DNA of 47,525 nucleotides. Source: Trichomonas gallinae. Lineage: Eukaryota. The DNA is taken from positions 1 to 47,525 of the forward strand of contig MRSU01003735.1 of the NCBI GenBank assembly GCA_008369845.1, read 5' to 3'. Below the pieces are notes generated by a model. The model did no database searches and was not told the DNA's origin. It worked only from the letters and a program-made list of their open reading frames with translations. Below are positions 130 to 47,362 of this stretch, in pieces (within the stretch, counting starts at the first letter, position 1; each line of letters opens with the position of its first letter). The position numbers were made by a program, and so were the translations under genes.

Positions 130-414
130 GTTTGATAATATTAATGATTGTCTTCATATTTGAAGCAATAAGTAAAGTTGTTTGATCATTCGTTTCCTAT
201 AATTGTCTGTTATAATAAATATTTTAAATGTAGAATGATATATTTTGATTTATTGGACTTATTATGATGTGTTTGAAGATATTAATGAATGTCTTTATGT
301 GAAGCAAGAATTAAAGTTGTTTGATGTCTCATTTTATACAATTGTCTGTTGTAATAAATATATATTATGTAAAATTTTTTTTGTGTTTTATTGGACTTAT
401 TGTGATGTGTTTGC
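130..414. repeat. Degenerate tandem duplication, ~141-bp unit x2
   Basis: TAAAGTTGTTTGAT, AATTGTCTGTT.TAATAAATAT and TTTATTGGACTTATT.TGATGTGTTTG each occur twice, about 140 bp apart. Confidence 0.8.
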
Positions 415-4766: not shown

Positions 4767-4940
4767 TTTACATGGCAAAATTTCATAATTTTTGACATCT
4801 TACGAATTTTACGTGATAAATACTTGAAAATTGATTTTTGAATAATTTTACATGACAAAAGTTACCAAAATTCTGATAATTTATGATTTTACATGACAAA
4901 TATATCTGGATTTATGATAACGGATGATTTTACGTGACAA
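4767..4940. promoter_or_regulatory. Array of 5 TTTACRTG(A/G)(C/T)A motifs at ~40-bp spacing in a divergent promoter
   Basis: Copies start at 4767, 4808, 4847, 4888 and 4929. Confidence 0.6.
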
Positions 4941-4964
4941 AATTTACTAATTTTTTGAAAATTG

Positions 4965-5983
4965 ATGAATGATGAGCTAGAAAAAATGAGAGCTCATAAT
5001 AAAAAGCTAAAAGACAAGATCAAAGAGCAGTATCAAGTCTTCCAAGAAGAGAAGAACAAACTGAAATCAATGAATCAAGCACTTAGAGCAGAATTATTTT
5101 CTGAACAGTCCAAAAACAAAGCAATTATAGAACAGTTCAACGCAAAGTTACGTGACATGGAGCAAAGATTAGCTTTACAACATAATATGTCTCAATTATC
5201 GCCTTCGAAATCACCACAAAAACGTTATTTTGCCAATCCATCTAGATTTGATGCTTTAGAGGAAAGAAGTAGGATATTATCTCAGCAGGCTGATGAAATC
5301 TTGTTTCGGTGTAGGTCAGCAAATCCAAATGCATTTGATCATTCTTATTTTAAGGAAAATTCAAAACAAACAATAGAAACAACGATAGATATCCATATCA
5401 AATCGACTCTTTTTCAACAGACATAAATCCGACTGATAATAAAATTTCAATTGGAATTGAAGCATCTGATTCAATCACACATTCAAATATATATGAATTT
5501 GATTCAGATAACTACCAGGAACAGATCGAACAGCCTCAAGACAATTTTTCAGATAATGATGTTACTAATGATTCAATAATGTCAAGTTTTATTGTCAATA
5601 AGTCATCAATGTCATCAAGCAGACTTAAAACATTGAGTTCTTCTCCTGATTCTCCTCAAGATGACACAAATCAGTCTAGAAACTCTTCTGAAGTAGAAAG
5701 GAATGTGACAAAACGAAACAAGATGCGGAAGAGTCCAATAAGAAGTCAAAAAGAGAAACAAAATGAAATTGAACCTCAAATATCAGATATTTTCAGAAAC
5801 CCAAAAAGATCTGCACCAGAAAAGAAAGAAAATGCAAAATCCCCGGGCTTTGAATTTAATGAAGGATCTATATTTGATCCATTCAACGAAATAAGCAACA
5901 TTCAAGATGATGCGCTCTCTGGTTTCCAAATTTCCGGAATTATGGATGCTAAAGACGAATTTTTAAATGAAGAAGAAAATTGA
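4965..5983 (+). CDS. Coiled-coil/Ser-rich hypothetical protein split by one frameshift (ORFs 4962-5426 and 5579-5983)
   Basis: The frame of the second ORF is open back to 5354 and overlaps the first ORF; coding-like composition is continuous across the junction. Confidence 0.6.
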
Positions 5984-17742: not shown

Positions 17743-18927
17743 ATGTCAACAACAATCAAAATACTTTCATCAGCGAATGCAATGAAAGGAAGTTTATCAG
17801 CAAAACAAACATCCGAATGCATTGCAAAAGGAGTAGAGAAAGCATTCGAGAAGTACAATTCTCTATACAACAAGAAATTAAATCCGGATATTCAAATAAA
17901 ACCGATTGCAGACGGAGGAGATGATACTGTTGATGTAATTGCCGATACATTCTACAAAAATACTGTCAAAGGACCTCTATGTGATCCAGTTGAAGCTAGA
18001 TGGGGTTCAAGGGATGACACGGCTGTAATTGAGATGGCTAAATCGTCAGGAATTGCACTTTTACCTGAAGACAAGCTTAACCCATTCGTTACAACTACAT
18101 ATGGCACTGGAGAATTAATTATGGAAGCAATTAATAAAGGATTCAAGAAGATTCTTCTAACAATTGGTGGATCAGCTACGGTTGATGGTGGCATTGGTGC
18201 ACTCGCCGCAATGGGCGCTAAATTCTATGATAAAAATAATGAATTGATTTTGCCGTACGGCAACTCTTCGCTTGGAAAAGTAGCCAAAATCGATTTTAGC
18301 GCATTTGACAAGTTCAAAGATGTATCTTTTAGCATTGCATGCGATGTTGATAACATATTATTAGGTGAAAAAGGATCTGCTGCTATTTTTGGTCCACAAA
18401 AGCTTGCACCATCAGTAAGAAACGATAAATCAGCAAAAGACAAAGCTGTAAAAGAAATGGACGCAAATTTGGAGAATTTTGCAAATATCGTCAAAAAAGC
18501 CACAGGAAAAGATATAAAGCTTATCAAAGGCATAGGGGCTGCTGGTGGCCTCTCAATTGGCTTTGTTGCTGTTTTTGATGCGATTTTGAAGCCTGGTTCA
18601 GAATTTATTTTAGATCTTTTAGAAATCACTGAAGAAATGAGCCCAGACATCATAATTACATCTGAAGGGAAATGTGATGTCTCCACATTAAACAATAAAG
18701 CACCTTACGCATTGATAAAAAGATTCAAGAAATCTTATTCAATAATTTTAACAGGAGCCATAGAAAGTGAGGAGGTTGAAATGAAATTAAATGAAGCTGG
18801 TGCATCACAAGTCCTTACAATCGAAGATGGACCAATAATTTTATCTGAATCAATGAAACGATGTGCGGAGCTTATAGAAAGAGCAGCATACAGAGCAGTA
18901 TTTGCTTTCCTCAAAGCTCGTGTATAA
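17743..18927 (+). CDS. glxK: Glycerate kinase, GlxK/GarK family
   Basis: Family motifs PIADGGD, AVIEMA, TTTYGTGE, IGGSATVDGG, ACDVDN.LLG.KG, GAAGG and (T/S)EG..D. ATG 17743 follows a TCATA initiator. Confidence 0.92.
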   Translation: MSTTIKILSSANAMKGSLSAKQTSECIAKGVEKAFEKYNSLYNKKLNPDIQIKPIADGGDDTVDVIADTFYKNTVKGPLCDPVEARWGSRDDTAVIEMAKSSGIALLPEDKLNPFVTTTYGTGELIMEAINKGFKKILLTIGGSATVDGGIGALAAMGAKFYDKNNELILPYGNSSLGKVAKIDFSAFDKFKDVSFSIACDVDNILLGEKGSAAIFGPQKLAPSVRNDKSAKDKAVKEMDANLENFANIVKKATGKDIKLIKGIGAAGGLSIGFVAVFDAILKPGSEFILDLLEITEEMSPDIIITSEGKCDVSTLNNKAPYALIKRFKKSYSIILTGAIESEEVEMKLNEAGASQVLTIEDGPIILSESMKRCAELIERAAYRAVFAFLKARV

Positions 18928-19165
18928 TAAAATTAACATACTATCATATATATATTTTAATTATTTTTTTTTTAGGTTAAAGATATTGAATATTAAATTG
19001 CATTTGATAAACTTGATGACTTGATATTGAACTCGAAAGAAAACCAATTGATATCAATTAGAAAGTTGAGGAAGGTGAAACAGAAGAAGAAATATTTCAC
19101 AAATATTTTTGCTTCTTCGAGATAAATGATGATCATCACAACTATTTATTTGATTAGCTACCCGA

Positions 19166-19267
19166 TAACACTTGTTCATCATTTTTATAAGGAAATCATT
19201 AATCACATTTGTTTTTCATTAATATAATGGATTCATCAATTTTTTTGTTTAACAATATTAAAATGAA
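19166..19267 (+). repeat. About 3 copies of the 37-nt insert unit, inverted relative to the ankyrin-gene inserts
   Basis: Units start at 19169, 19206 and ~19243; 19169-19220 matches the reverse complement of 20064-20115 at 44/52 nt without gaps. Confidence 0.8.
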
Positions 19268-19305
19268 TGAGGAGAAAAAATTTTCCGACTTTTTTTCTAA
19301 CCTCC

Positions 19306-21679
19306 TTATTTCCCAAAATACTTAGAAAATGAATTTTGGCTTGAGTTTTTGGGCATTTGTGTAGTATCAGCACCATGGTCAGCAAGATATTTAGCAATTT
19401 CAACATATCCAAGTTCCTTAGCAGCTGTATATAGATTCTTTTATTAATAAAATAAACAAATGTGCATGGTGAATTCCTAATTATTATGATATACATATAT
19501 GATTGATGAAAGTTTTATTTTGATGATTAGCAATTGTGATTGGAGAATGAATTATAATTATAATGTACAAATGTAAATGATGAAATACTTCCTCGTTGAC
19601 ATCTGCACCATTCTCTACAAGATATTGAACTATTTCAAGAGAAGCATTCTCAACAGCAATGGCAAGTGGAAGTTTAAATTATATTAATAAACAAATGTTA
19701 TTGAAAAATCCATTATAACCATTATAAATATATGAGAACGACAAATTCCTTACAATACTGATAAATATATATGATTGATGAAGTGTATCCAAGTTGACAT
19801 CTGCGCCCTGTTCAACAAGATATTTAACCATTTCAAAATTGTTCATTTTAACAGCAACTGAGAGAGGATTCTTATTCTATATAAATAAACAAATGATATT
19901 AATGAGTTCCTTATAATAATGATAAGCAAATGCGATTGATGAATAATTCTCATGTTGATATCTTCGCCATACTCAAAGAAATTGACAATAAATTTACAAT
20001 GATTTATCAGAATAGCAGATTTGGTAGATGAATTTCTTACAATAATGATGTACCATTTAAAGGAATGATAAACAAATGTGAATGATGAATTCCTTATAAT
20101 ATTGATAAACAAATGTAATTGACAAAATACACTCATGTTAACATCTGCACCATGTTCAACAAGGAAACGAACAATATCAAGAGATTTCGTTTTAACTGCA
20201 ACTGTAAGAATATTGGTTTATATAACAGATAAACAAAAATGATTGATGAATTACTTATAAAAATGATAAACAAAAGTGATTGCTGAATAAATAATAAAAA
20301 TGAAAAACATATGGGATTGAGATATTACATATAAAAATAATTAATAAATATGATTGACAAATTGTTTATAATAAAGATAAACAGATGTTATTGATAAATA
20401 TCATTTAATACCGATAAACATCTTATAACATTGATATACAAATTAGTTTGAAGAATTTCTTAAAACATTGATAAACAAATGTCAGTGGTGAACATACTGT
20501 AATAATGATAAATATTTTATAGTACTGATAAACATTATTATTATAATGATAAATATTTGCAATTGATGAATGATATTCTTGTTGACATTTGCGTCATGCT
20601 CGACAAGATATTTTATTATTTCAAATGATTTCATCTGAACTGCCATTGAGAGAGGCGTTTGTTATTTAAAAGATAAACATTTGTAATTAATGAACGCGCT
20701 ATAATAATTATAAACATATTTTTTTGATGAATATATTATCATAATGGCAAACAACATCTTTGTTGACATTTGCACCATGTTCAACAAGAAACTGGACAAT
20801 CTCAAATGACTTCATTTCAATCGCCATTGAGAGAGGAGTCTTTTAAAAAAAAAGAAAAGCAAATGTAATTGATGAATGTATTATAATAATGATAAACAAA
20901 TACATTAGAAAGATATGTTCATCATTAACATCATATCCATTCTCAATAAGAAACAACAAGCCTTTGAGATTTGAATATAGAAAGCATTCTGCAGTGTTTA
21001 AGTTTCCAATTGATCCTTTATTTTCGAGAAGCCAATCAAAGATGTCATTTCTATGATACATCAATGCAGTTGTTAAATGCTGATCTGTTATCTTGAGCTG
21101 CTGCTCGTTGATTAAGGACATGATGATATTTTTATTTCCTCCTTCTACAGCAAACTTAATTGCGTCATCTGAAATCAAAGCACCATTTAGTTTCAAGAAT
21201 GTGAAGCATTTTTCTGAGCCATATCGGCAGGCATGATTAATTAACGATAATATTCCAACTTTCATATTAATATCAAATGTTTCCTTTTCCATACTTGCAA
21301 CCAAGTCATCCAATATGTCCAAAGCAACTGAATTACCAATGTTTCCTAATCCATTTAAATGTTTGTCTTTATTATCATTAGGTAACATTGTTTCAGTAAT
21401 TTCAATTCCATTTCGTTCCTTTAATATTTGAATTATCTGTGAAAATAATTGACTTCGTTTTGGGAATGGATACGGTAATAGTTTTAATATGTAGATAATA
21501 CTTGAAGGATTTATTGAAGAGTTGTCAATTATTTTGATTATTTCAAGAATTGAAGAATCATCAAATTGATTTTCACTGCTCAAGCATGAGATTATATGAT
21601 AAATATCCTGAAGTTGTTTCGGAACTATCACCTCGCTAATGGTTTTAATTTTAAGATCATTAATATTTTTTTCATTCAT
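19306..21679 (-). CDS. DUF3447/ankyrin-repeat gene whose ankyrin modules are separated by repeat-derived inserts (interrupted gene or pseudogene)
   Basis: The N-terminal ORF runs from 21679 to ...LIENGYDVN (20924). Modules follow at 20842-20762 (KTPLSMAIEMKSFEIVQFLVEHGANVN), 20661-20581 (QTPLSMAVQMKSFEIIKYLVEHDANVN), 20217-20137 (TNILTVAVKTKSLDIVRFLVEHGADVN), 19876-19793 (NKNPLSVAVKMNNFEMVKYLVEQGADVN), 19678-19595 (FKLPLAIAVENASLEIVQYLVENGADVN) and 19440-19306 (KNLYTAAKELGYVEIAKYLADHGAD...FGK*). Confidence 0.8.
19441..20923 (-). repeat. Interspersed ~37-nt repeat (consensus ~TTCATCAATTACATTTGTTTATCATTATTATAAGGAA) forming the inter-module inserts
   Basis: The plus-strand core GATAAACAAATG and variants recur throughout, e.g. 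20067 and 20104 (period 37). Confidence 0.85.
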
Positions 21680-21807
21680 TTTTTTATGTCACTATTCAAT
21701 AATTTCCAATGTGCATTCGATTCCACACCTTATGAATATGTCTAAATGCTTAATATAATTTTCAATATGCAGTTCTGCAAATGATGTTAGATGGCAAATT
21801 TAATTCT

Positions 21808-22142
21808 ACTTTTACCGTGTAAAGTCAAAAATATAATGATTCTTGACATTAACGTAATGAGGCTTGTTTTTCTTGGAAAATATAATTACTAGCATCACGG
21901 TTCCTTACTGTTACTATTGGCACTAATGTGCATATATAGAAAGCGGAAAAATTAAATGAAGTCAAGAATCAAAATATTTTTGACATTACGTGGCATATTT
22001 AAATGTACTTTTGCCATGTAAAGCTAAAAATATATTGATACTTGACATTTATGTTATAATATGCTTGTTTTTCATGGAAAATATAATTAATAGCATCATT
22101 AGTCCTTACTGTTACTATTGGTACTAACGTGCATATATAGAC
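21808..22142. repeat. Direct duplication of ~135 bp in a divergent promoter (21808-21941 and ~22007-22142)
   Basis: TGTAAAG...CTTGACATT...GCTTGTTTTTC.TGGAAAATATAATTA.TAGCATCA...TCCTTACTGTTACTATTGG.ACTAA.GTGCATATATAGA occurs twice, about 200 bp apart. Confidence 0.85.
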
Positions 22143-25165: not shown

Positions 25166-26212
25166 TTATTTCTTTATGAACTTATATGCGAAGTAGAAAA
25201 GAGCTGCTGCACCAGTGATTGTTGCTGCTGCCGCGATTCCGACATCAATAAGCGAAGTTGGTTCTTCTTCTTCTGCATGCTTGCATGACTGGCAGTGCTC
25301 GCATGATCCACAGTGTTCATTCTCTTGCTTAACAGCTTCATCAATCAAATTTGGAATTTCTGGATCTAATTCTTGAGCAGCTTGCTGATAAAACCTAGCT
25401 TTTTCGTCATCCTTAGGTGTTCCACGTCCTGTATGATACAATTTTGCAATTTCGTGGTACACAGCTGGATCTCCAAGTTCAAGAGCTGCAGTTAAGAACT
25501 TAAAAGCCTTTTCTGCATCTTTGTGTGCATATGCGATCTCAGATAATGGAGAATATGCGGAACCAAGATAGAAAGCGGCTTGTTTTATACCGAGATCAAA
25601 AGCTCTTTGCAAATAAACAAGTGATTTTTCGCGGTCTTCATCATTTTCGTATAAGAAAACACCAAGCTCGTATATCGATGTTGGAATTTGGTAAACATCA
25701 GCAAGAACTGTGAGAAAATCAATAACTTGGTTGCGTTTTTCAGGTTCATTAATAAATGACTTAATATAGCCAACTATAGCAGGAATGTATCCAGAAGCTG
25801 TTGAGTATTTCAAAAGTTCTCCGAGTTTTATTTCTGGATTATTATAATGTTCCATATCTGATGTAACTAAGTATACCAATTCGTATGCTGAGTGTGGATC
25901 AATCTGATTTGTATCTGGTGTTGGCTTAATTATTAATACAGGCCAATTTATATCTTCATCTTTCTCAATTTCGATAATAAAACGATCATTTGATGGAACA
26001 ACAGCAGCTCCTTTTGTTTTACCGAACAATGTTCCTAAAATTATTGGTATTTTATCAGAAAATGTAAGAGAAATCGTATTTAATTCTTGATTGTATTGGA
26101 AATTGAACAAATCACGTTTAATAGCAACATCGCATTTAAAAGATATAGTGATCTTCCCATTTTCGTCCTCCATGTTCCAATAATAAAATTCTTGGAATTC
26201 AGCTTCAATCAT
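25166..26212 (-). CDS. CS/Hsp20-like + Sel1/TPR + tail-anchor protein (hydrogenosomal Tom36/Tom46-like)
   Basis: Beta-rich N-domain ending IEKDEDINWPVLI, Sel1-like repeats (YELGV, FYLGSAY, HEIAKLYHTGRGTPKD) and a C-terminal TM followed by KFIKK. ATG 26212 follows TCATT. Confidence 0.65.
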   Translation of the reverse strand: MIEAEFQEFYYWNMEDENGKITISFKCDVAIKRDLFNFQYNQELNTISLTFSDKIPIILGTLFGKTKGAAVVPSNDRFIIEIEKDEDINWPVLIIKPTPDTNQIDPHSAYELVYLVTSDMEHYNNPEIKLGELLKYSTASGYIPAIVGYIKSFINEPEKRNQVIDFLTVLADVYQIPTSIYELGVFLYENDEDREKSLVYLQRAFDLGIKQAAFYLGSAYSPLSEIAYAHKDAEKAFKFLTAALELGDPAVYHEIAKLYHTGRGTPKDDEKARFYQQAAQELDPEIPNLIDEAVKQENEHCGSCEHCQSCKHAEEEEPTSLIDVGIAAAATITGAAALFYFAYKFIKK

Positions 26213-26280
26213 CTTGGCTTCCGTCAACGAATAATGAAATTTTTAAACCGTTTTTGTGTTTTTGATTTATTTTTTTATTG

Positions 26281-26511
26281 ATGGATCAGTTGAATGTTTC
26301 TCCCGATGAACAAATTAGAAGATTAAGGGAAAAATGCAACGAACAACTGATTGAGAATGAGACACTAGAACAGAGGCTTTACAGTTTTCAGCATTTGCTC
26401 GAAGAAAGTGAATATCTTTCAAAAAAGAACAATACTCAGCCTGAAGTCGTAGATAATATTGATAAGCTCAAGTTTGTTAATATAGAAATTCCAGTAACAG
26501 CGCCATATTGA
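26281..26511 (+). CDS. Small coiled-coil hypothetical protein
   Basis: 76-aa ATG ORF with heptad pattern and coding-like composition. Confidence 0.6.
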   Translation: MDQLNVSPDEQIRRLREKCNEQLIENETLEQRLYSFQHLLEESEYLSKKNNTQPEVVDNIDKLKFVNIEIPVTAPY

Positions 26512-44270: not shown

Positions 44271-45689
44271 ATGTCTGAAGAAGCTTCTCTTTCAGACATA
44301 TTCTTTTCTTATTTAGCGAAATATGACAGACACATCCAACTCTCTAAAGCTCTAATGAATATGAAGCCAGAAGATGAAGAAAAAGTTCTAAATGAAATAA
44401 TTTACTTAGTTGAAAACGAAAAGTATGATGTTACTGCATTCTATAAGCTAATTTCGATTGCATGCGAGCGCAATCTTCGATCTATTAAGGAATATTGGAG
44501 TCTTTTCAATCAAATTTATTCAAAATATCAAATTCGACCAAATATTTACGAGCTTAACCCAACAATCGGTGTGATTTACGCAAAAGTTTATAATATGAAA
44601 CATTCTAGGTACGATTTACCAAAAAACTTCGAGAAAAATCAAAATCAAACTTTAGAAGAAATTTTTAACGTATACGAACCAGACTCGATAATGCATTGCA
44701 TATTACACGATGACATTAACCAATTCATTAATAATATACAAGCGAACACGAATAATTTCGATTTCAACATGAAAATTTTTGACAAAAATATCATCGAGTG
44801 GACATGTTTCTACGGATCTTTGCAGTGCTTCAAGTTTTTACAGAGCAATAGTGCTAAAATAACAGAGCGGTGCATGAACTTGAGTATTTCAGGCAAAAAC
44901 AAGAATATTATCCACGAATGTTTAAATCAGAACATAATTGATAACGAAACGATGAAAGAATGTATCAAAAATCATGATTTTGAATTCGCAATGTTCATTA
45001 ATAATCAGTTTGAAATTTCTATTCCTATTGATTTAGTTGTTGATTATCTTGATTTGGAGCTTTTCCTTTATATTTTGTCGAAATTGATCAATTTTGATCA
45101 CTGCTTGATAAAAAGCGTTAGTTTAGGAATCCCTTCACTCATTGATGACATTATTCAGCTTGGTGGTGATGTTAATTTTCGTGCACAGTATTATTATGGA
45201 TATACATCATTGTTTTATGCTGCTTTATACAATAGAATTGAAATCGCAAAGAAATTGATTGAATTGGGAGCGAATCTTGATGTTACTGATGAAGATGGAA
45301 ACACAGCATTAATTATTGCTGGTTTATCGAATGGTGTTGAAGTTGCAGCTAAATTGGTTGAAGCTGGGTCGAATATAGAAGCTAAAAATAGAAGAGGATG
45401 GACATCATTAATTACTGCTGCTGTTAATGACAATGCAGAAGTTGCCGCGAAATTAGTTGAATTAGGTGCAGATATTGAATGTAAAGATAGAGAAGGACAA
45501 ACTCCACTTATTCATGCAGCAGTGATTAATAGCATTGATGTTGTTACTAAGTTAATAGAACTGGGAGCTGATATTGAAGCAACAGATAATTATGGGAAAA
45601 CAGCCTTAGATTTTGCTGTAGAATATAAAAGTTTTGAAGTTGAATCAAAATTGAATGAAATCATTGCCAACAAAAAGAAAAATGACTAA
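44271..45689 (+). CDS. DUF3447/ankyrin-repeat protein, uninterrupted
   Basis: ILHDDI...WTCFYGSLQCFKFL...ISGKNKNIIH, then five contiguous 33-aa ankyrins (GYTSL, GNTAL, GWTSL, GQTPL, GKTAL). Confidence 0.93.
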   Translation: MSEEASLSDIFFSYLAKYDRHIQLSKALMNMKPEDEEKVLNEIIYLVENEKYDVTAFYKLISIACERNLRSIKEYWSLFNQIYSKYQIRPNIYELNPTIGVIYAKVYNMKHSRYDLPKNFEKNQNQTLEEIFNVYEPDSIMHCILHDDINQFINNIQANTNNFDFNMKIFDKNIIEWTCFYGSLQCFKFLQSNSAKITERCMNLSISGKNKNIIHECLNQNIIDNETMKECIKNHDFEFAMFINNQFEISIPIDLVVDYLDLELFLYILSKLINFDHCLIKSVSLGIPSLIDDIIQLGGDVNFRAQYYYGYTSLFYAALYNRIEIAKKLIELGANLDVTDEDGNTALIIAGLSNGVEVAAKLVEAGSNIEAKNRRGWTSLITAAVNDNAEVAAKLVELGADIECKDREGQTPLIHAAVINSIDVVTKLIELGADIEATDNYGKTALDFAVEYKSFEVESKLNEIIANKKKND

Positions 45690-45896
45690 AATAGCTTTAT
45701 TCAACACATCTTTACAACTGAGCTGTTTAGCAAAAAAATAAAAAAAATAGATAAAGTCGTATGAAAAAAATTCCAATAATAACAATTCCAAATGTTCATC
45801 TATGTCATGAGAATCATTTTGATAATTTTGCCATGATTTTACATGCATTTATTTGGAAAAAAAAATCGAAAAAATTTGTCATCTAATTTTTCAACG

Positions 45897-46187
45897 ATGC
45901 ATGATAGATTCGCTAGACCTCCAACATATATCACAGGTTGCTCCAAGGTTACTAATGTTCAGCCCCAGAAGAAGAATTTCGATAATGCCACAAAGAAGTT
46001 CGCAATGATTGAGAATGATTCTGATCTTTTTGGTGATAACCGTCCAACGGCTGGAATTGATTTTGCAAGCAAGATGAGAACACTTCGTAACAACAAGGAT
46101 TGGACTCAGAAGGACCTCGCATTACGTGCTGGTGTCAAGGTTGATGTTGTTCGTCTCCAAATTGACATAATAATAATTCATATTTAA
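45897..46187 (+). pseudogene. MBF1: Multiprotein bridging factor 1 (MBF1)-like, 3'-truncated
   Basis: MRTLRNNKDWTQKDLALRAGVKVDVV is the start of the MBF1 HTH; the expected xxYExGxAxP continuation is replaced by AT-rich sequence after ~46150. Confidence 0.6.
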
Positions 46188-47049: not shown

Positions 47050-47362
47050 CATCTTAGCAATAAATATATTCAAATTAAAATCAAATTGAATATATGTGTT
47101 TTAAACCAAAAATTAAGAAATATAAAACATGTGATATTCTAGTTGCATCTTGTTAAATAATATATTCAAATTAAAAGTATCACTATCTAATATAATTTAT
47201 CATCAAATTGAATATTTATATCATAGATCAAAAATTAAGAAATTTAAATCATATGATTTTCTAATCACGGCATGTTAAATAATATCTTCAAATTAAAAGC
47301 ATCATTATCATATATAAATTTTTTATCAAATTTAATAAAATTGTTTTAAGTCAAAAATTAAA
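47050..47362. repeat. Degenerate tandem repeat, 3 copies of ~96-122 bp
   Basis: TTCAAATTAAAA...ATCAAATT.AATA...CAAAAATTAA recurs near 47069, 47165 and 47287. Confidence 0.75.

What the first reader, a model, noticed from the sequence alone, without database searches (positions are those of the whole stretch)
19306..21679. Ankyrin gene with every repeat split at the same loop by non-canonical, repeat-built inserts: candidate undescribed splicing/recoding system
Seen: after the DUF3447-type ORF, six stop-free ankyrin modules follow on the minus strand. Five have exactly 27 codons from the K/Q/T two residues before P(I)L to the terminal VN, and the sixth runs to a stop at 19306. The gaps measured from VN to the next module are 81, 100, 363, 260, 114 and 154 nt, always in the beta-hairpin loop; three are not multiples of 3. 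The gaps are made of a degenerate ~37-nt unit. They lack the trichomonad intron 3' signature (ACTAAC...CAG), and only one ends in AG at the point where the frame resumes. The modules differ from each other yet keep ankyrin consensus and length while the inserts drift in length and sequence. Inference: selection acts on the modules as protein, so the inserts are probably removed or skipped, by non-canonical splicing, ribosomal bypassing or DNA-level excision. Variable skipping could diversify the binding surface. The intact paralogue at 44271-45689 has no inserts and is an internal control.
Basis: partly seen in the sequence, partly recalled or inferred. Interest (0 to 1): 0.92.

Follow-up and report, generated by a model that had tools for sequence, protein, structure and literature searches.

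The report
Tiny 17-base introns, single-codon exons
In a Trichomonas parasite an ankyrin-repeat gene is broken by 52 tiny inserts of about 17 bases that lack normal intron signals and leave single codons between them; a close relative's assembled sequence, likely made from RNA, lacks the inserts and keeps those codons, so they are likely cut out by an undescribed kind of splicing.

Summary
Real, and stranger than reported. The window is from a Trichomonas species. The gaps in this DUF3447-ankyrin gene are arrays of a fixed 17-nt element (5' motif RTTYATCA), single or paired (34 nt), separated by one-codon exons. A frame-blind parse finds 51 of 52 elements, with spacers of 0 or 3 nt in 43 of 45 cases. 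Removing them gives a 495-aa open frame. None of 29 blocks is GT-AG, and there is no branch motif or shared hairpin. One 738-nt contig of run X1 (a relative, 94-97% alike, RNA by guess) joins six gaps. It lacks every element and keeps the micro-exons in order: 13 of 21 codons identical, 20 within one base. Fifteen of 156 homologue tails read as the same array. Precise removal is well supported, RNA-level removal is likely (about 0.78), and the machinery is unknown. Limits: one contig, gap 1 not bridged, and two 18-nt elements that may frameshift this allele. Not found in 10 literature searches.

The parts
20915..21679 (-). Exon 1: start codon, N-terminal domain, DUF3447, first ankyrin cap, ending 3 codons after VN
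   Evidence: X1 contig of 548 nt covers 20944-21341
20843..20914 (-). Array 1: 4 elements (last one 18 nt, in a T9 run), 1 micro-exon at 20880-20878
   Evidence: not bridged by any X1 contig listed; the first element is the one the blind parse missed
20753..20842 (-). Ankyrin module 1 (27 codons) plus 3 loop codons
   Evidence: X1 cover
20662..20752 (-). Array 2: 5 elements (17+34+34), micro-exons at 20735-20733 and 20698-20696
   Evidence: both codons identical in X1 at joint 20652/20773 (table 5c)
20572..20661 (-). Ankyrin module 2 plus 3 loop codons
20218..20571 (-). Array 3: 19 elements (one 18 nt, or a 4-nt spacer at 20537-20534), 10 micro-exons
   Evidence: X1 joint 20218/20572 has 12 codons, 6 identical and 4 one base off
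20128..20217 (-). Ankyrin module 3 plus 3 loop codons
   Evidence: X1 record 1, letters 222-306
20017..20127 (-). Array 4: 6 elements, 3 micro-exons
   Evidence: X1 joint 20008/20134 has 23 letters between, 23 predicted
19945..20016 (-).
   Evidence: kept in X1 at 19948-20008
19874..19944 (-). Array 5: 4 elements, 1 micro-exon (Gly)
   Evidence: X1 has 6 letters between, 6 predicted
19784..19873 (-). Ankyrin module 5 plus 3 loop codons
   Evidence: X1 record 1, letters 397-485
19676..19783 (-). Array 6: 6 elements, 2 micro-exons (Gly, Trp)
   Evidence: X1 has 24 letters between, 24 predicted
19586..19675 (-). Ankyrin module 6 plus 3 loop codons
19441..19585 (-). Array 7: 8 elements, 3 micro-exons
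   Evidence: X1 has 7 letters between, 7 predicted once the two shared end letters are counted
19306..19440 (-). Last exon: ankyrin module 7, C-terminal tail, stop
   Evidence: X1 record 1, letters 591-701 on 19441-19331
18990..19264 (+). Decayed paralogue on the opposite strand: short colinear matches to the family N-terminus in shifting frames, then 5 element-like 17-mers with Gly and Trp codons as spacers (19174-19264)
   Evidence: the protein matches are individually weak (E 0.09-1 in a 420-nt target)

Best explanation
The gene's ankyrin loops are encoded as single codons separated by fixed 17-nt elements, and these elements are likely cut out of the transcript by an undescribed, non-GT-AG splicing reaction that would restore a 495-aa DUF3447-ankyrin protein. 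Shown: the array anatomy, the open frame after removal, and a relative's contig that lacks the elements and keeps the codons in six gaps. Inferred: removal happens on RNA (run X1 behaves like a transcriptome). The machinery would read the 5' motif RUUYAUCA and cut 17 nt on by a ruler, one element at a time from 5' to 3', so that each 3-nt exon is already part of a long upstream exon when the next element goes; 34-nt blocks would be two steps with a zero-length exon. My single best guess for the catalyst is a relaxed form of the trichomonad spliceosome (about 0.45 given RNA removal), ahead of a protein endonuclease plus ligase (about 0.35) or guide RNAs (about 0.1). Likely role: gain or loss of a 20- or 37-nt unit adds or removes exactly one loop residue without a frameshift, so the ankyrin binding loops can change fast between strains.
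For: Anatomy: 50 of 52 elements are 17 nt; the blind parse finds 51 of 52; 43 of 45 spacers are 0 or 3 nt. Frame: 495 aa, 0 internal stops; keeping any one of the 29 blocks gives a stop within 3-26 codons. X1 record 1 (738 nt, depth 10.5) has letters between aligned sides equal to prediction at 4 of 6 joints (23, 6, 24, 7) and longer by whole codons at the other two (+3, +6). Of 21 micro-exons in the bridged gaps, 13 are identical in X1, 7 differ by one base and 1 by two (hand comparison table 5c). X1 looks like RNA: its 8 longest pieces lie almost end to end on ORFs, only 4% of what was laid runs on unlike, and depth varies 6-89 among those pieces. Three other X1 contigs, evidently paralogues, also go from repeat to repeat without the motif (table 5c, read by eye). 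The elements predate the window/X1 split: P0001 (78% identical) and paralogues at 45-63% stop in element-derived tails at the same place; 15 of 156 tails fit the array model against 1 of 154 control windows. Modules: dN/dS about 0.30, with 125 of 241 differences at third positions. For the spliceosome guess: 20 of 52 elements match the published type-B donor pattern GTWYWD, 35 of 52 with A or G first; position +2 is T in 48 and C in 4.
Against: It rests on one contig of one run whose RNA status is a guess, from a relative and not the same strain. Contigs show neither strand nor intermediates. Gap 1 is not bridged in the listed joints. Two elements must be 18 nt for the frame to stay open; at a strict 17 nt this allele stops at residue 265 or 319. 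At the second site X1 has a 3-nt codon where the window has 4 nt, which suggests an extra base (assembly error or a broken allele). My first parse was made after seeing the X1 letters; only one search is blind, and its matrix derives from that parse's other gaps. Against a spliceosome: 0 of 29 blocks GT..AG, only 2 of 52 units end in AG, no CTAAC, whereas all 63 catalogued T. vaginalis introns keep GT/AG and a fused branch site (PMC12316389). A 67-nt contig of RNA run X5 retains elements. Reach to T. vaginalis is weak: 1 of 4 named G3 proteins tested passes, and the one T. foetus protein does not.
Confidence: 0.78

Rival explanations
1. Removal is precise but the joined form is DNA: X1's contig comes from a retrocopy, from programmed DNA excision, or from an element-free allele.
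For: X1 is RNA only by guess and DNA can be in it. No DNA run of X1's strain could be laid. Family members with several uninterrupted repeats exist (P0043/P0164, P0045, P0064).
Against: X1's pieces are gene-sized and end at ORF ends. More distant homologues carry the first elements at the same place, so X1's lineage had them, and losing dozens precisely needs a removal system; a retrocopy would itself imply RNA splicing. Programmed DNA elimination normally needs a separate germline nucleus, which trichomonads lack (recalled).
Confidence: 0.12
2. Pseudogene tail amplified with a minisatellite; only the 278-aa ORF, or nothing, is expressed.
For: AT-rich (18% GC) tandem units. A decayed paralogue lies next door. 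The two 18-nt exceptions may frameshift this very allele.
Against: It cannot explain a contig that lacks exactly the elements and keeps the single codons in order, spacers of 0 or 3 nt in 43 of 45 cases, or dN/dS of 0.30. That this one allele is recently broken (about 0.3) is a separate question and leaves the system standing.
Confidence: 0.03
3. The mRNA keeps the elements and the ribosome bypasses or reads through them.
For: All 29 blocks lie between codons. Transcripts that span several predicted genes, ankyrin genes among them, are reported in Trichomonas and read as stop-codon readthrough (bioRxiv 10.64898/2026.08.31.748405). X5 has a short element-bearing contig.
Against: The joined form exists as nucleic acid. 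Blocks of 17 and 34 nt shift the frame, which readthrough cannot mend. Phase 0 throughout follows from duplication of one unit under selection for frame.
Confidence: 0.03
4. The joined contig is an artefact of reverse-transcriptase template switching or of assembly across repeats.
For: One contig at depth 10.5, in a repeat-rich family; the tool warns that joints at low likeness can come from repeats.
Against: 13 of 29 blocks have no shared letters at their ends and the rest at most 1-3, and 5 of 6 gaps fold no better than shuffles, so there is no template for switching. An artefact would not keep every codon, drop every element and stay in frame over six gaps with the unusual short module in place.
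Confidence: 0.03

Closest known systems
Trichomonad type B spliceosomal introns (PMC12316389; passages and part 2 of 7 read)
   Same: Very short, near-fixed length (23-28 nt), AT-rich; the 5' pattern GTWYWD is matched by 20 of 52 elements.
   Different: Those are GT-AG with a fused branch site, one per gene (at most two in T. stableri). Here: 17 nt, no AG, no branch motif, 52 in one gene. That study discarded junctions lacking the known motifs (99.7% of questionable ones), so it could not have listed these.
Stentor tiny introns (PMC9505925; abstract and section 2.1 read)
   Same: Fixed 15-16 nt, AU-rich, genome-wide; shows that a spliceosome can handle this size.
   Different: GU-AG ends with a branch A at position 10-11. 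Here position 10 is T in 42 of 52 and the ends are not GT-AG. Back-to-back units and one-codon exons are not mentioned in the section read.
Schistosoma micro-exon genes, MEGs (PMC10526429; start of abstract in a search listing)
   Same: A parasite gene built from runs of tiny exons (3-81 bp); the likely purpose, protein variation, is alike.
   Different: MEG introns are long (up to 5 kbp) and, as recalled, canonical; MEG variation comes from exon skipping. Here the introns are 17 nt and non-canonical, all micro-exons are 3 nt, and only strain-level change is seen.
IRE1/XBP1-HAC1-bZIP60 unconventional splicing (PMC4891664; passages read)
   Same: Short (23-26 nt), non-GT-AG, frame-shifting pieces removed from an mRNA.
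   Different: It needs two stem-loops with three conserved bases each and acts once on one mRNA. Here there is no shared fold and there are dozens of units per gene.
Euglenid nonconventional introns (PMC11170887; abstract read)
   Same: Nuclear introns without GT-AG, removed by an unknown machinery.
   Different: Their ends pair into a structured motif, and short euglenid introns tend to be canonical. Here the units are 17 nt, unstructured and defined by a 5' motif and length.
Recursive splicing and microexons (PMC13149111; passages read)
   Same: Stepwise removal at zero-length exons; exons of 3-15 nt that tune surface loops.
   Different: Described for very long, spliceosome-type introns, mostly neural; the review does not mention Trichomonas (0 occurrences).

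Membership tests
Trichomonad spliceosomal introns (types A and B) | GT...AG ends | tested here: not met
   0 of 29 blocks in any sliding register; 1 of 52 single units is GT..AG
Trichomonad spliceosomal introns (types A and B) | Branch site (A/T)CTAAC fused to the 3' end | tested here: not met
   0 CTAAC and 3 scattered CTAA in 20923-19441
Trichomonad spliceosomal introns (types A and B) | Length 23-28 nt or 56-196 nt | tested here: not met
   Blocks of 17 (6), 34 (21) and 35 (2) nt against lengths
Trichomonad spliceosomal introns (types A and B) | 5' motif GTWYWD (type B) | tested here: inconclusive
   20 of 52 match, 35 of 52 with A or G first; the pattern is loose in AT-rich DNA and no null was computed
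Spliceosomal introns (any) | Lariat intermediate and dependence on U2/U6 and Prp8 | not testable with these tools
   Needs bench work
U12-type introns | RTATCC donor (recalled) and a minor spliceosome in the organism | tested here: not met
   The column consensus is RTTYATCA; U12 genes are reported absent in T. vaginalis (PMC12316389)
IRE1-type unconventional introns | Twin stem-loops at the cut sites | tested here: not met
   5 of 6 gaps folded no better than shuffles (z -0.45 to +2.5); gap 1 alone had z -3.3; gap 3 was not folded
Euglenid nonconventional introns | Base-paired intron ends | tested here: not met
   no Rfam family at E<=1 over 18900-21800
Micro-exon genes (works like) | Runs of frame-preserving tiny exons | tested here: met
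   21 spacers of 3 nt and one of 4 nt in the blind parse; kept in X1
Micro-exon genes (works like) | Alternative skipping that yields isoforms | tested here: inconclusive
   The one contig includes all; contigs drop rare variants
DUF3447-ankyrin proteins of parabasalids | PF11929 followed by ankyrin repeats | tested here: met
   PF11929 E 1.1e-8; the element-free reading aligns to the intact paralogue over residues 135-439, the raw ORF only over 135-192

The most novel reading that the evidence does not exclude
Trichomonads run a second, spliceosome-independent splicing system that measures 17 nt from a short motif and excises tandem units between single codons. It acts on many members of the expanded ankyrin family and turns each binding loop into a cassette of codons that can be added, lost or skipped in frame: a diversity generator for ankyrin binders, hidden because genome annotation shows these genes as truncated and read mappers discard such junctions.
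Probability: 0.3. Interest if true: 0.98.

Novelty: categorically new. Interest (0 to 1): 0.93.

Why it matters
Trichomonas is described as intron-poor, with 63-84 strictly GT-AG introns per genome and at most two per gene (PMC12316389). This one gene holds 52 intervening units that fail the defining tests of every intron class I could check. If RNA-level removal is confirmed, it is a new intron class near the smallest size known, with one-codon exons. It would also mean that a number of 'truncated' ankyrin genes are misannotated, and would offer another reading for some transcripts now ascribed to readthrough. The machinery is directly testable with a 17-nt reporter and, if parasite-specific, would be a candidate drug target. 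The architecture also gives a simple route to frame-safe loop variation in a binder family.

Tried and rejected
No whole genome is held, so no genome-wide count. No run on record as RNA holds the stretch; X1 has a 0.14 share. X2 and X3 gave only short matches and X4 none; X5 gave one 67-nt piece. Bins without X1 cover (intergenic 21718-22118 and 26129-26500; 19044-19325) are not taken as evidence. A search for a full-length joined protein found none: the longer-protein search with the N-terminus gave 1 unrelated hit, and the last exon gave 0 of 3 candidates. Cluster pairs of unequal length (P0047/P0163, P0153/P0161, P0031/P0158) were not spliced/unspliced pairs; they differ by start choice or read-on. 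Element patterns: 0 hits in viral contigs and in prokaryote genomes; 4 hits in metagenomes, all chance with no array; no relatives in viral contigs. No Rfam match. Rest of the window: no element chain except the opposite-strand relic. I first thought the relic might be an antisense guide and rejected that, because it follows fragments of a paralogue. The 34-nt piRNA-like class of T. vaginalis (PMC7845603, passages) equals the paired-block length, but it is 5'-U biased and maps to transposons on both strands; no link shown. A composition flag for tails was too unspecific and was replaced, where 2 of the 15 passes (P0054, P0110) look like chance. Earlier scan notes: nothing on this locus or idea; one search gave one Euglena note. 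The element-free protein was not folded or searched remotely, so its structure is untested.

Full report
Source and setting. No whole genome is held for this window. One window protein (23531-23103) shares a 90% cluster with a T. vaginalis G3 protein and is 98% identical to it; four other window proteins have no exact match in the collection. The organism is therefore a Trichomonas close to, but not, strain G3. The ORF 21679-20843 carries DUF3447.

Observation. Two gap lengths were off by a codon, and one 'gap' hides a seventh, 21-codon repeat (20016-19954). Each of the seven gaps begins with three codons after VN and then consists of 17-nt elements, single or in pairs, separated by exactly three bases. 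There are 52 elements (50 of 17 nt, 2 of 18 nt) in 29 blocks (6 of 17, 21 of 34, 2 of 35 nt) and 22 micro-exons. The column consensus is R-T-T-Y-A-T-C-A at the 5' end and A-T-W-W at the 3' end; first and second halves of a pair form two sub-types, about 0.67-0.68 alike within and 0.50 between. Removing them yields 495 codons with no internal stop.

Is the parse real? My first parse was made after I had seen the X1 letters, so I repeated it with no frame rule and a matrix trained on the other six gaps. It recovered 51 of 52 elements. Spacers were 0 nt (22), 3 nt (21), 4 nt (1) and 15 nt (1, the miss), against about 4% each for 0 and 3 nt in shuffles. Every gap scored above the best of 200 shuffles. 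No block is GT..AG in any register; the commonest ends are AT..AA (11) and GT..AA (5). There is no CTAAC. Five of six gaps folded are no more structured than shuffles; gap 1 has a hairpin (z -3.3) and gap 3 was not folded. Rfam finds nothing.

Evidence for removal. Run X1 (kind 'RNA?', a guess; contigs only) holds a relative, about 93-99% alike on most neighbouring genes. Its eight longest pieces lie almost end to end on ORFs, and only 4% of what was laid runs on unlike, as expected of a transcriptome. One 738-nt contig (depth 10.5) runs from module 1 to the last exon on the gene's strand, skipping gaps 2-7, with extra letters at each joint. The number of those letters equals the prediction at four joints (23, 6, 24, 7) and exceeds it by whole codons at two (38 against 35, an extra codon at the end of module 1; 36 against 30 in gap 3). 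Read by hand, they are the micro-exons in order: of 21, 13 are identical, 7 differ by one base and 1 by two, and X1 has two more codons in loop 3. In gap 2 both single codons are identical and the flanks allow no sliding, which fixes the ends as GT..AA, AT..AG and GT..AA. Three further X1 contigs (depths 17-188), evidently paralogues, also pass from one repeat to the next without the motif. Gap 1 is not bridged in the listed joints; 7 joints and 87 pieces were not shown. A 67-nt contig of RNA run X5 lies on 20064-20122 with the elements in place: unprocessed RNA or DNA.

Selection and spread. Among the five full modules dN/dS is about 0.30. In the six bridged loops 10 of 39 codons change the residue between the window and X1, while the aligned module pieces differ at 17 of 285 bases (hand count); the numbers are small, but they point to fast-changing loops. 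All five close homologues (45-78% identity, unnamed Logan records) end shortly after the first ankyrin cap in I/F/L-rich tails. A model that asks whether a peptide is the translation of such an array passed 15 of 156 tails and 1 of 154 control windows; two passes look like chance. Of named proteins, T. vaginalis TVAG_104420 passes (1 of 200 shuffles). TVAG_004680, which has a 60-residue insert between two repeats, does not pass, nor do TVAG_271400, TVAG_035640 or T. foetus TRFO_34650. The system is thus family-wide in this lineage, but its reach into T. vaginalis is only hinted. A decayed paralogue with its own array sits tail to tail on the other strand. The window's two other ankyrin genes have no arrays.

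How it most likely works. Shown: anatomy, open frame, and a joined copy in a relative. Inferred: the elements are excised from RNA; the signal is the 5' motif plus length, since the 3' ends vary and there is no structure; removal goes unit by unit from 5' to 3', which spares the machinery from recognising a 3-nt exon. Any retained block stops translation within 3-26 codons. I put RNA-level removal at 0.78. For the catalyst I lean slightly to a relaxed spliceosome: the 5' end resembles the type-B donor pattern (20 of 52 exact), +2 is always T or C, and tiny fixed-length introns and zero-length exons are spliceosomal themes. The lack of AG and of a branch site argues against it, and an endonuclease-ligase route is nearly as likely. 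Duplication or loss of a 20- or 37-nt unit changes a loop by one residue in frame, as seen in loop 3. That these loops form the ankyrin binding face is recalled knowledge.

Against my reading. One contig, one run, another strain, RNA by guess. The frame needs two 18-nt elements; both lie in error-prone runs, and at strict 17 nt the allele stops at residue 265 or 319. This copy may be misassembled or recently broken. No full-length joined protein was found. Variable skipping is not shown.

Literature. Ten searches of the open-access library gave no description of such elements; subscription papers are not covered. The current Trichomonas intron catalogue (PMC12316389; passages and part 2 of 7) lists 63 GT/AG introns in T. 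vaginalis and 81 intron-bearing genes in T. stableri, after discarding junctions without known motifs. Default STAR settings also treat gaps under 21 nt as deletions (recalled). A 2026 preprint on readthrough transcripts (10.64898/2026.08.31.748405; abstract, methods, first results section and discussion) lists ankyrin genes among multi-ORF transcripts and does not mention small excisions in those sections; its supplements, which give coordinates, were not seen and may bear on this. Comparisons: Stentor introns (PMC9505925, section 2.1), euglenid introns (PMC11170887, abstract), IRE1 introns (PMC4891664, passages), schistosome MEGs (PMC10526429, listing), a review of non-canonical splicing (PMC13149111, passages) and 34-nt small RNAs (PMC7845603, passages). 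It works like a micro-exon gene built with tiny introns, but it fails the defining sequence tests of each intron class.

Verdict. A real and precisely removed class of 17-nt, non-GT-AG intervening elements with single-codon exons, likely a new kind of RNA splicing. Interest 0.93; categorically new as an intron class, pending matched DNA and RNA from one strain.

Noticed in passing
window 18990-19264 (+): Decayed paralogue tail to tail with the gene, with its own element array and Gly and Trp codon spacers, like array 6; lies in or next to the gene's 3' UTR on the opposite strand.
   Followed up: partly
window 20860-20843 and 20554-20534 (-): The two 18-nt exceptions lie in a T9 run and an AAT run; possible assembly errors or frameshifts of this allele.
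   Followed up: partly
P0032 and P0165: Two 99%-identical proteins part ways inside a short IH-led insert between VN and TPL: one stops, the other reads into a further repeat and then ends in a VH-led tail. It looks like a one-base difference inside a single element.
   Followed up: partly
P0031 (T. vaginalis TVAG_004680), residues about 330-390: A 60-residue I/F/Y-rich insert between two ankyrin repeats is read through in the annotation; it did not pass the 17-nt array model but is a good target for remapping long reads.
   Followed up: partly
window 21341-21455: The X1 contig of the 5' exon skips 113 bases here with unknown letters between, probably a divergent segment of the N-terminal domain.
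   Followed up: no
window 20064-20122: A 67-nt contig from RNA run X5 keeps the elements (6 mismatches in 59); too short to say anything about habitat or strain.
   Followed up: no
window 130-413, 4845-4968, 47080-47337: Other tandem repeats (periods 139, 41, 122) that do not match the 17-nt matrix. The 41-nt one lies just before ORF 4965-5426, which with 5579-5983 may be one split gene.
   Followed up: no
window 17743-18927 (+): Glycerate kinase (PF02595, E 1e-99), a family mostly known from bacteria (recalled); a possible lateral transfer.
   Followed up: no
window 45843-46187 (+): The ORF ends abruptly in an I-rich tail and may be interrupted by an intron; not examined.
   Followed up: no
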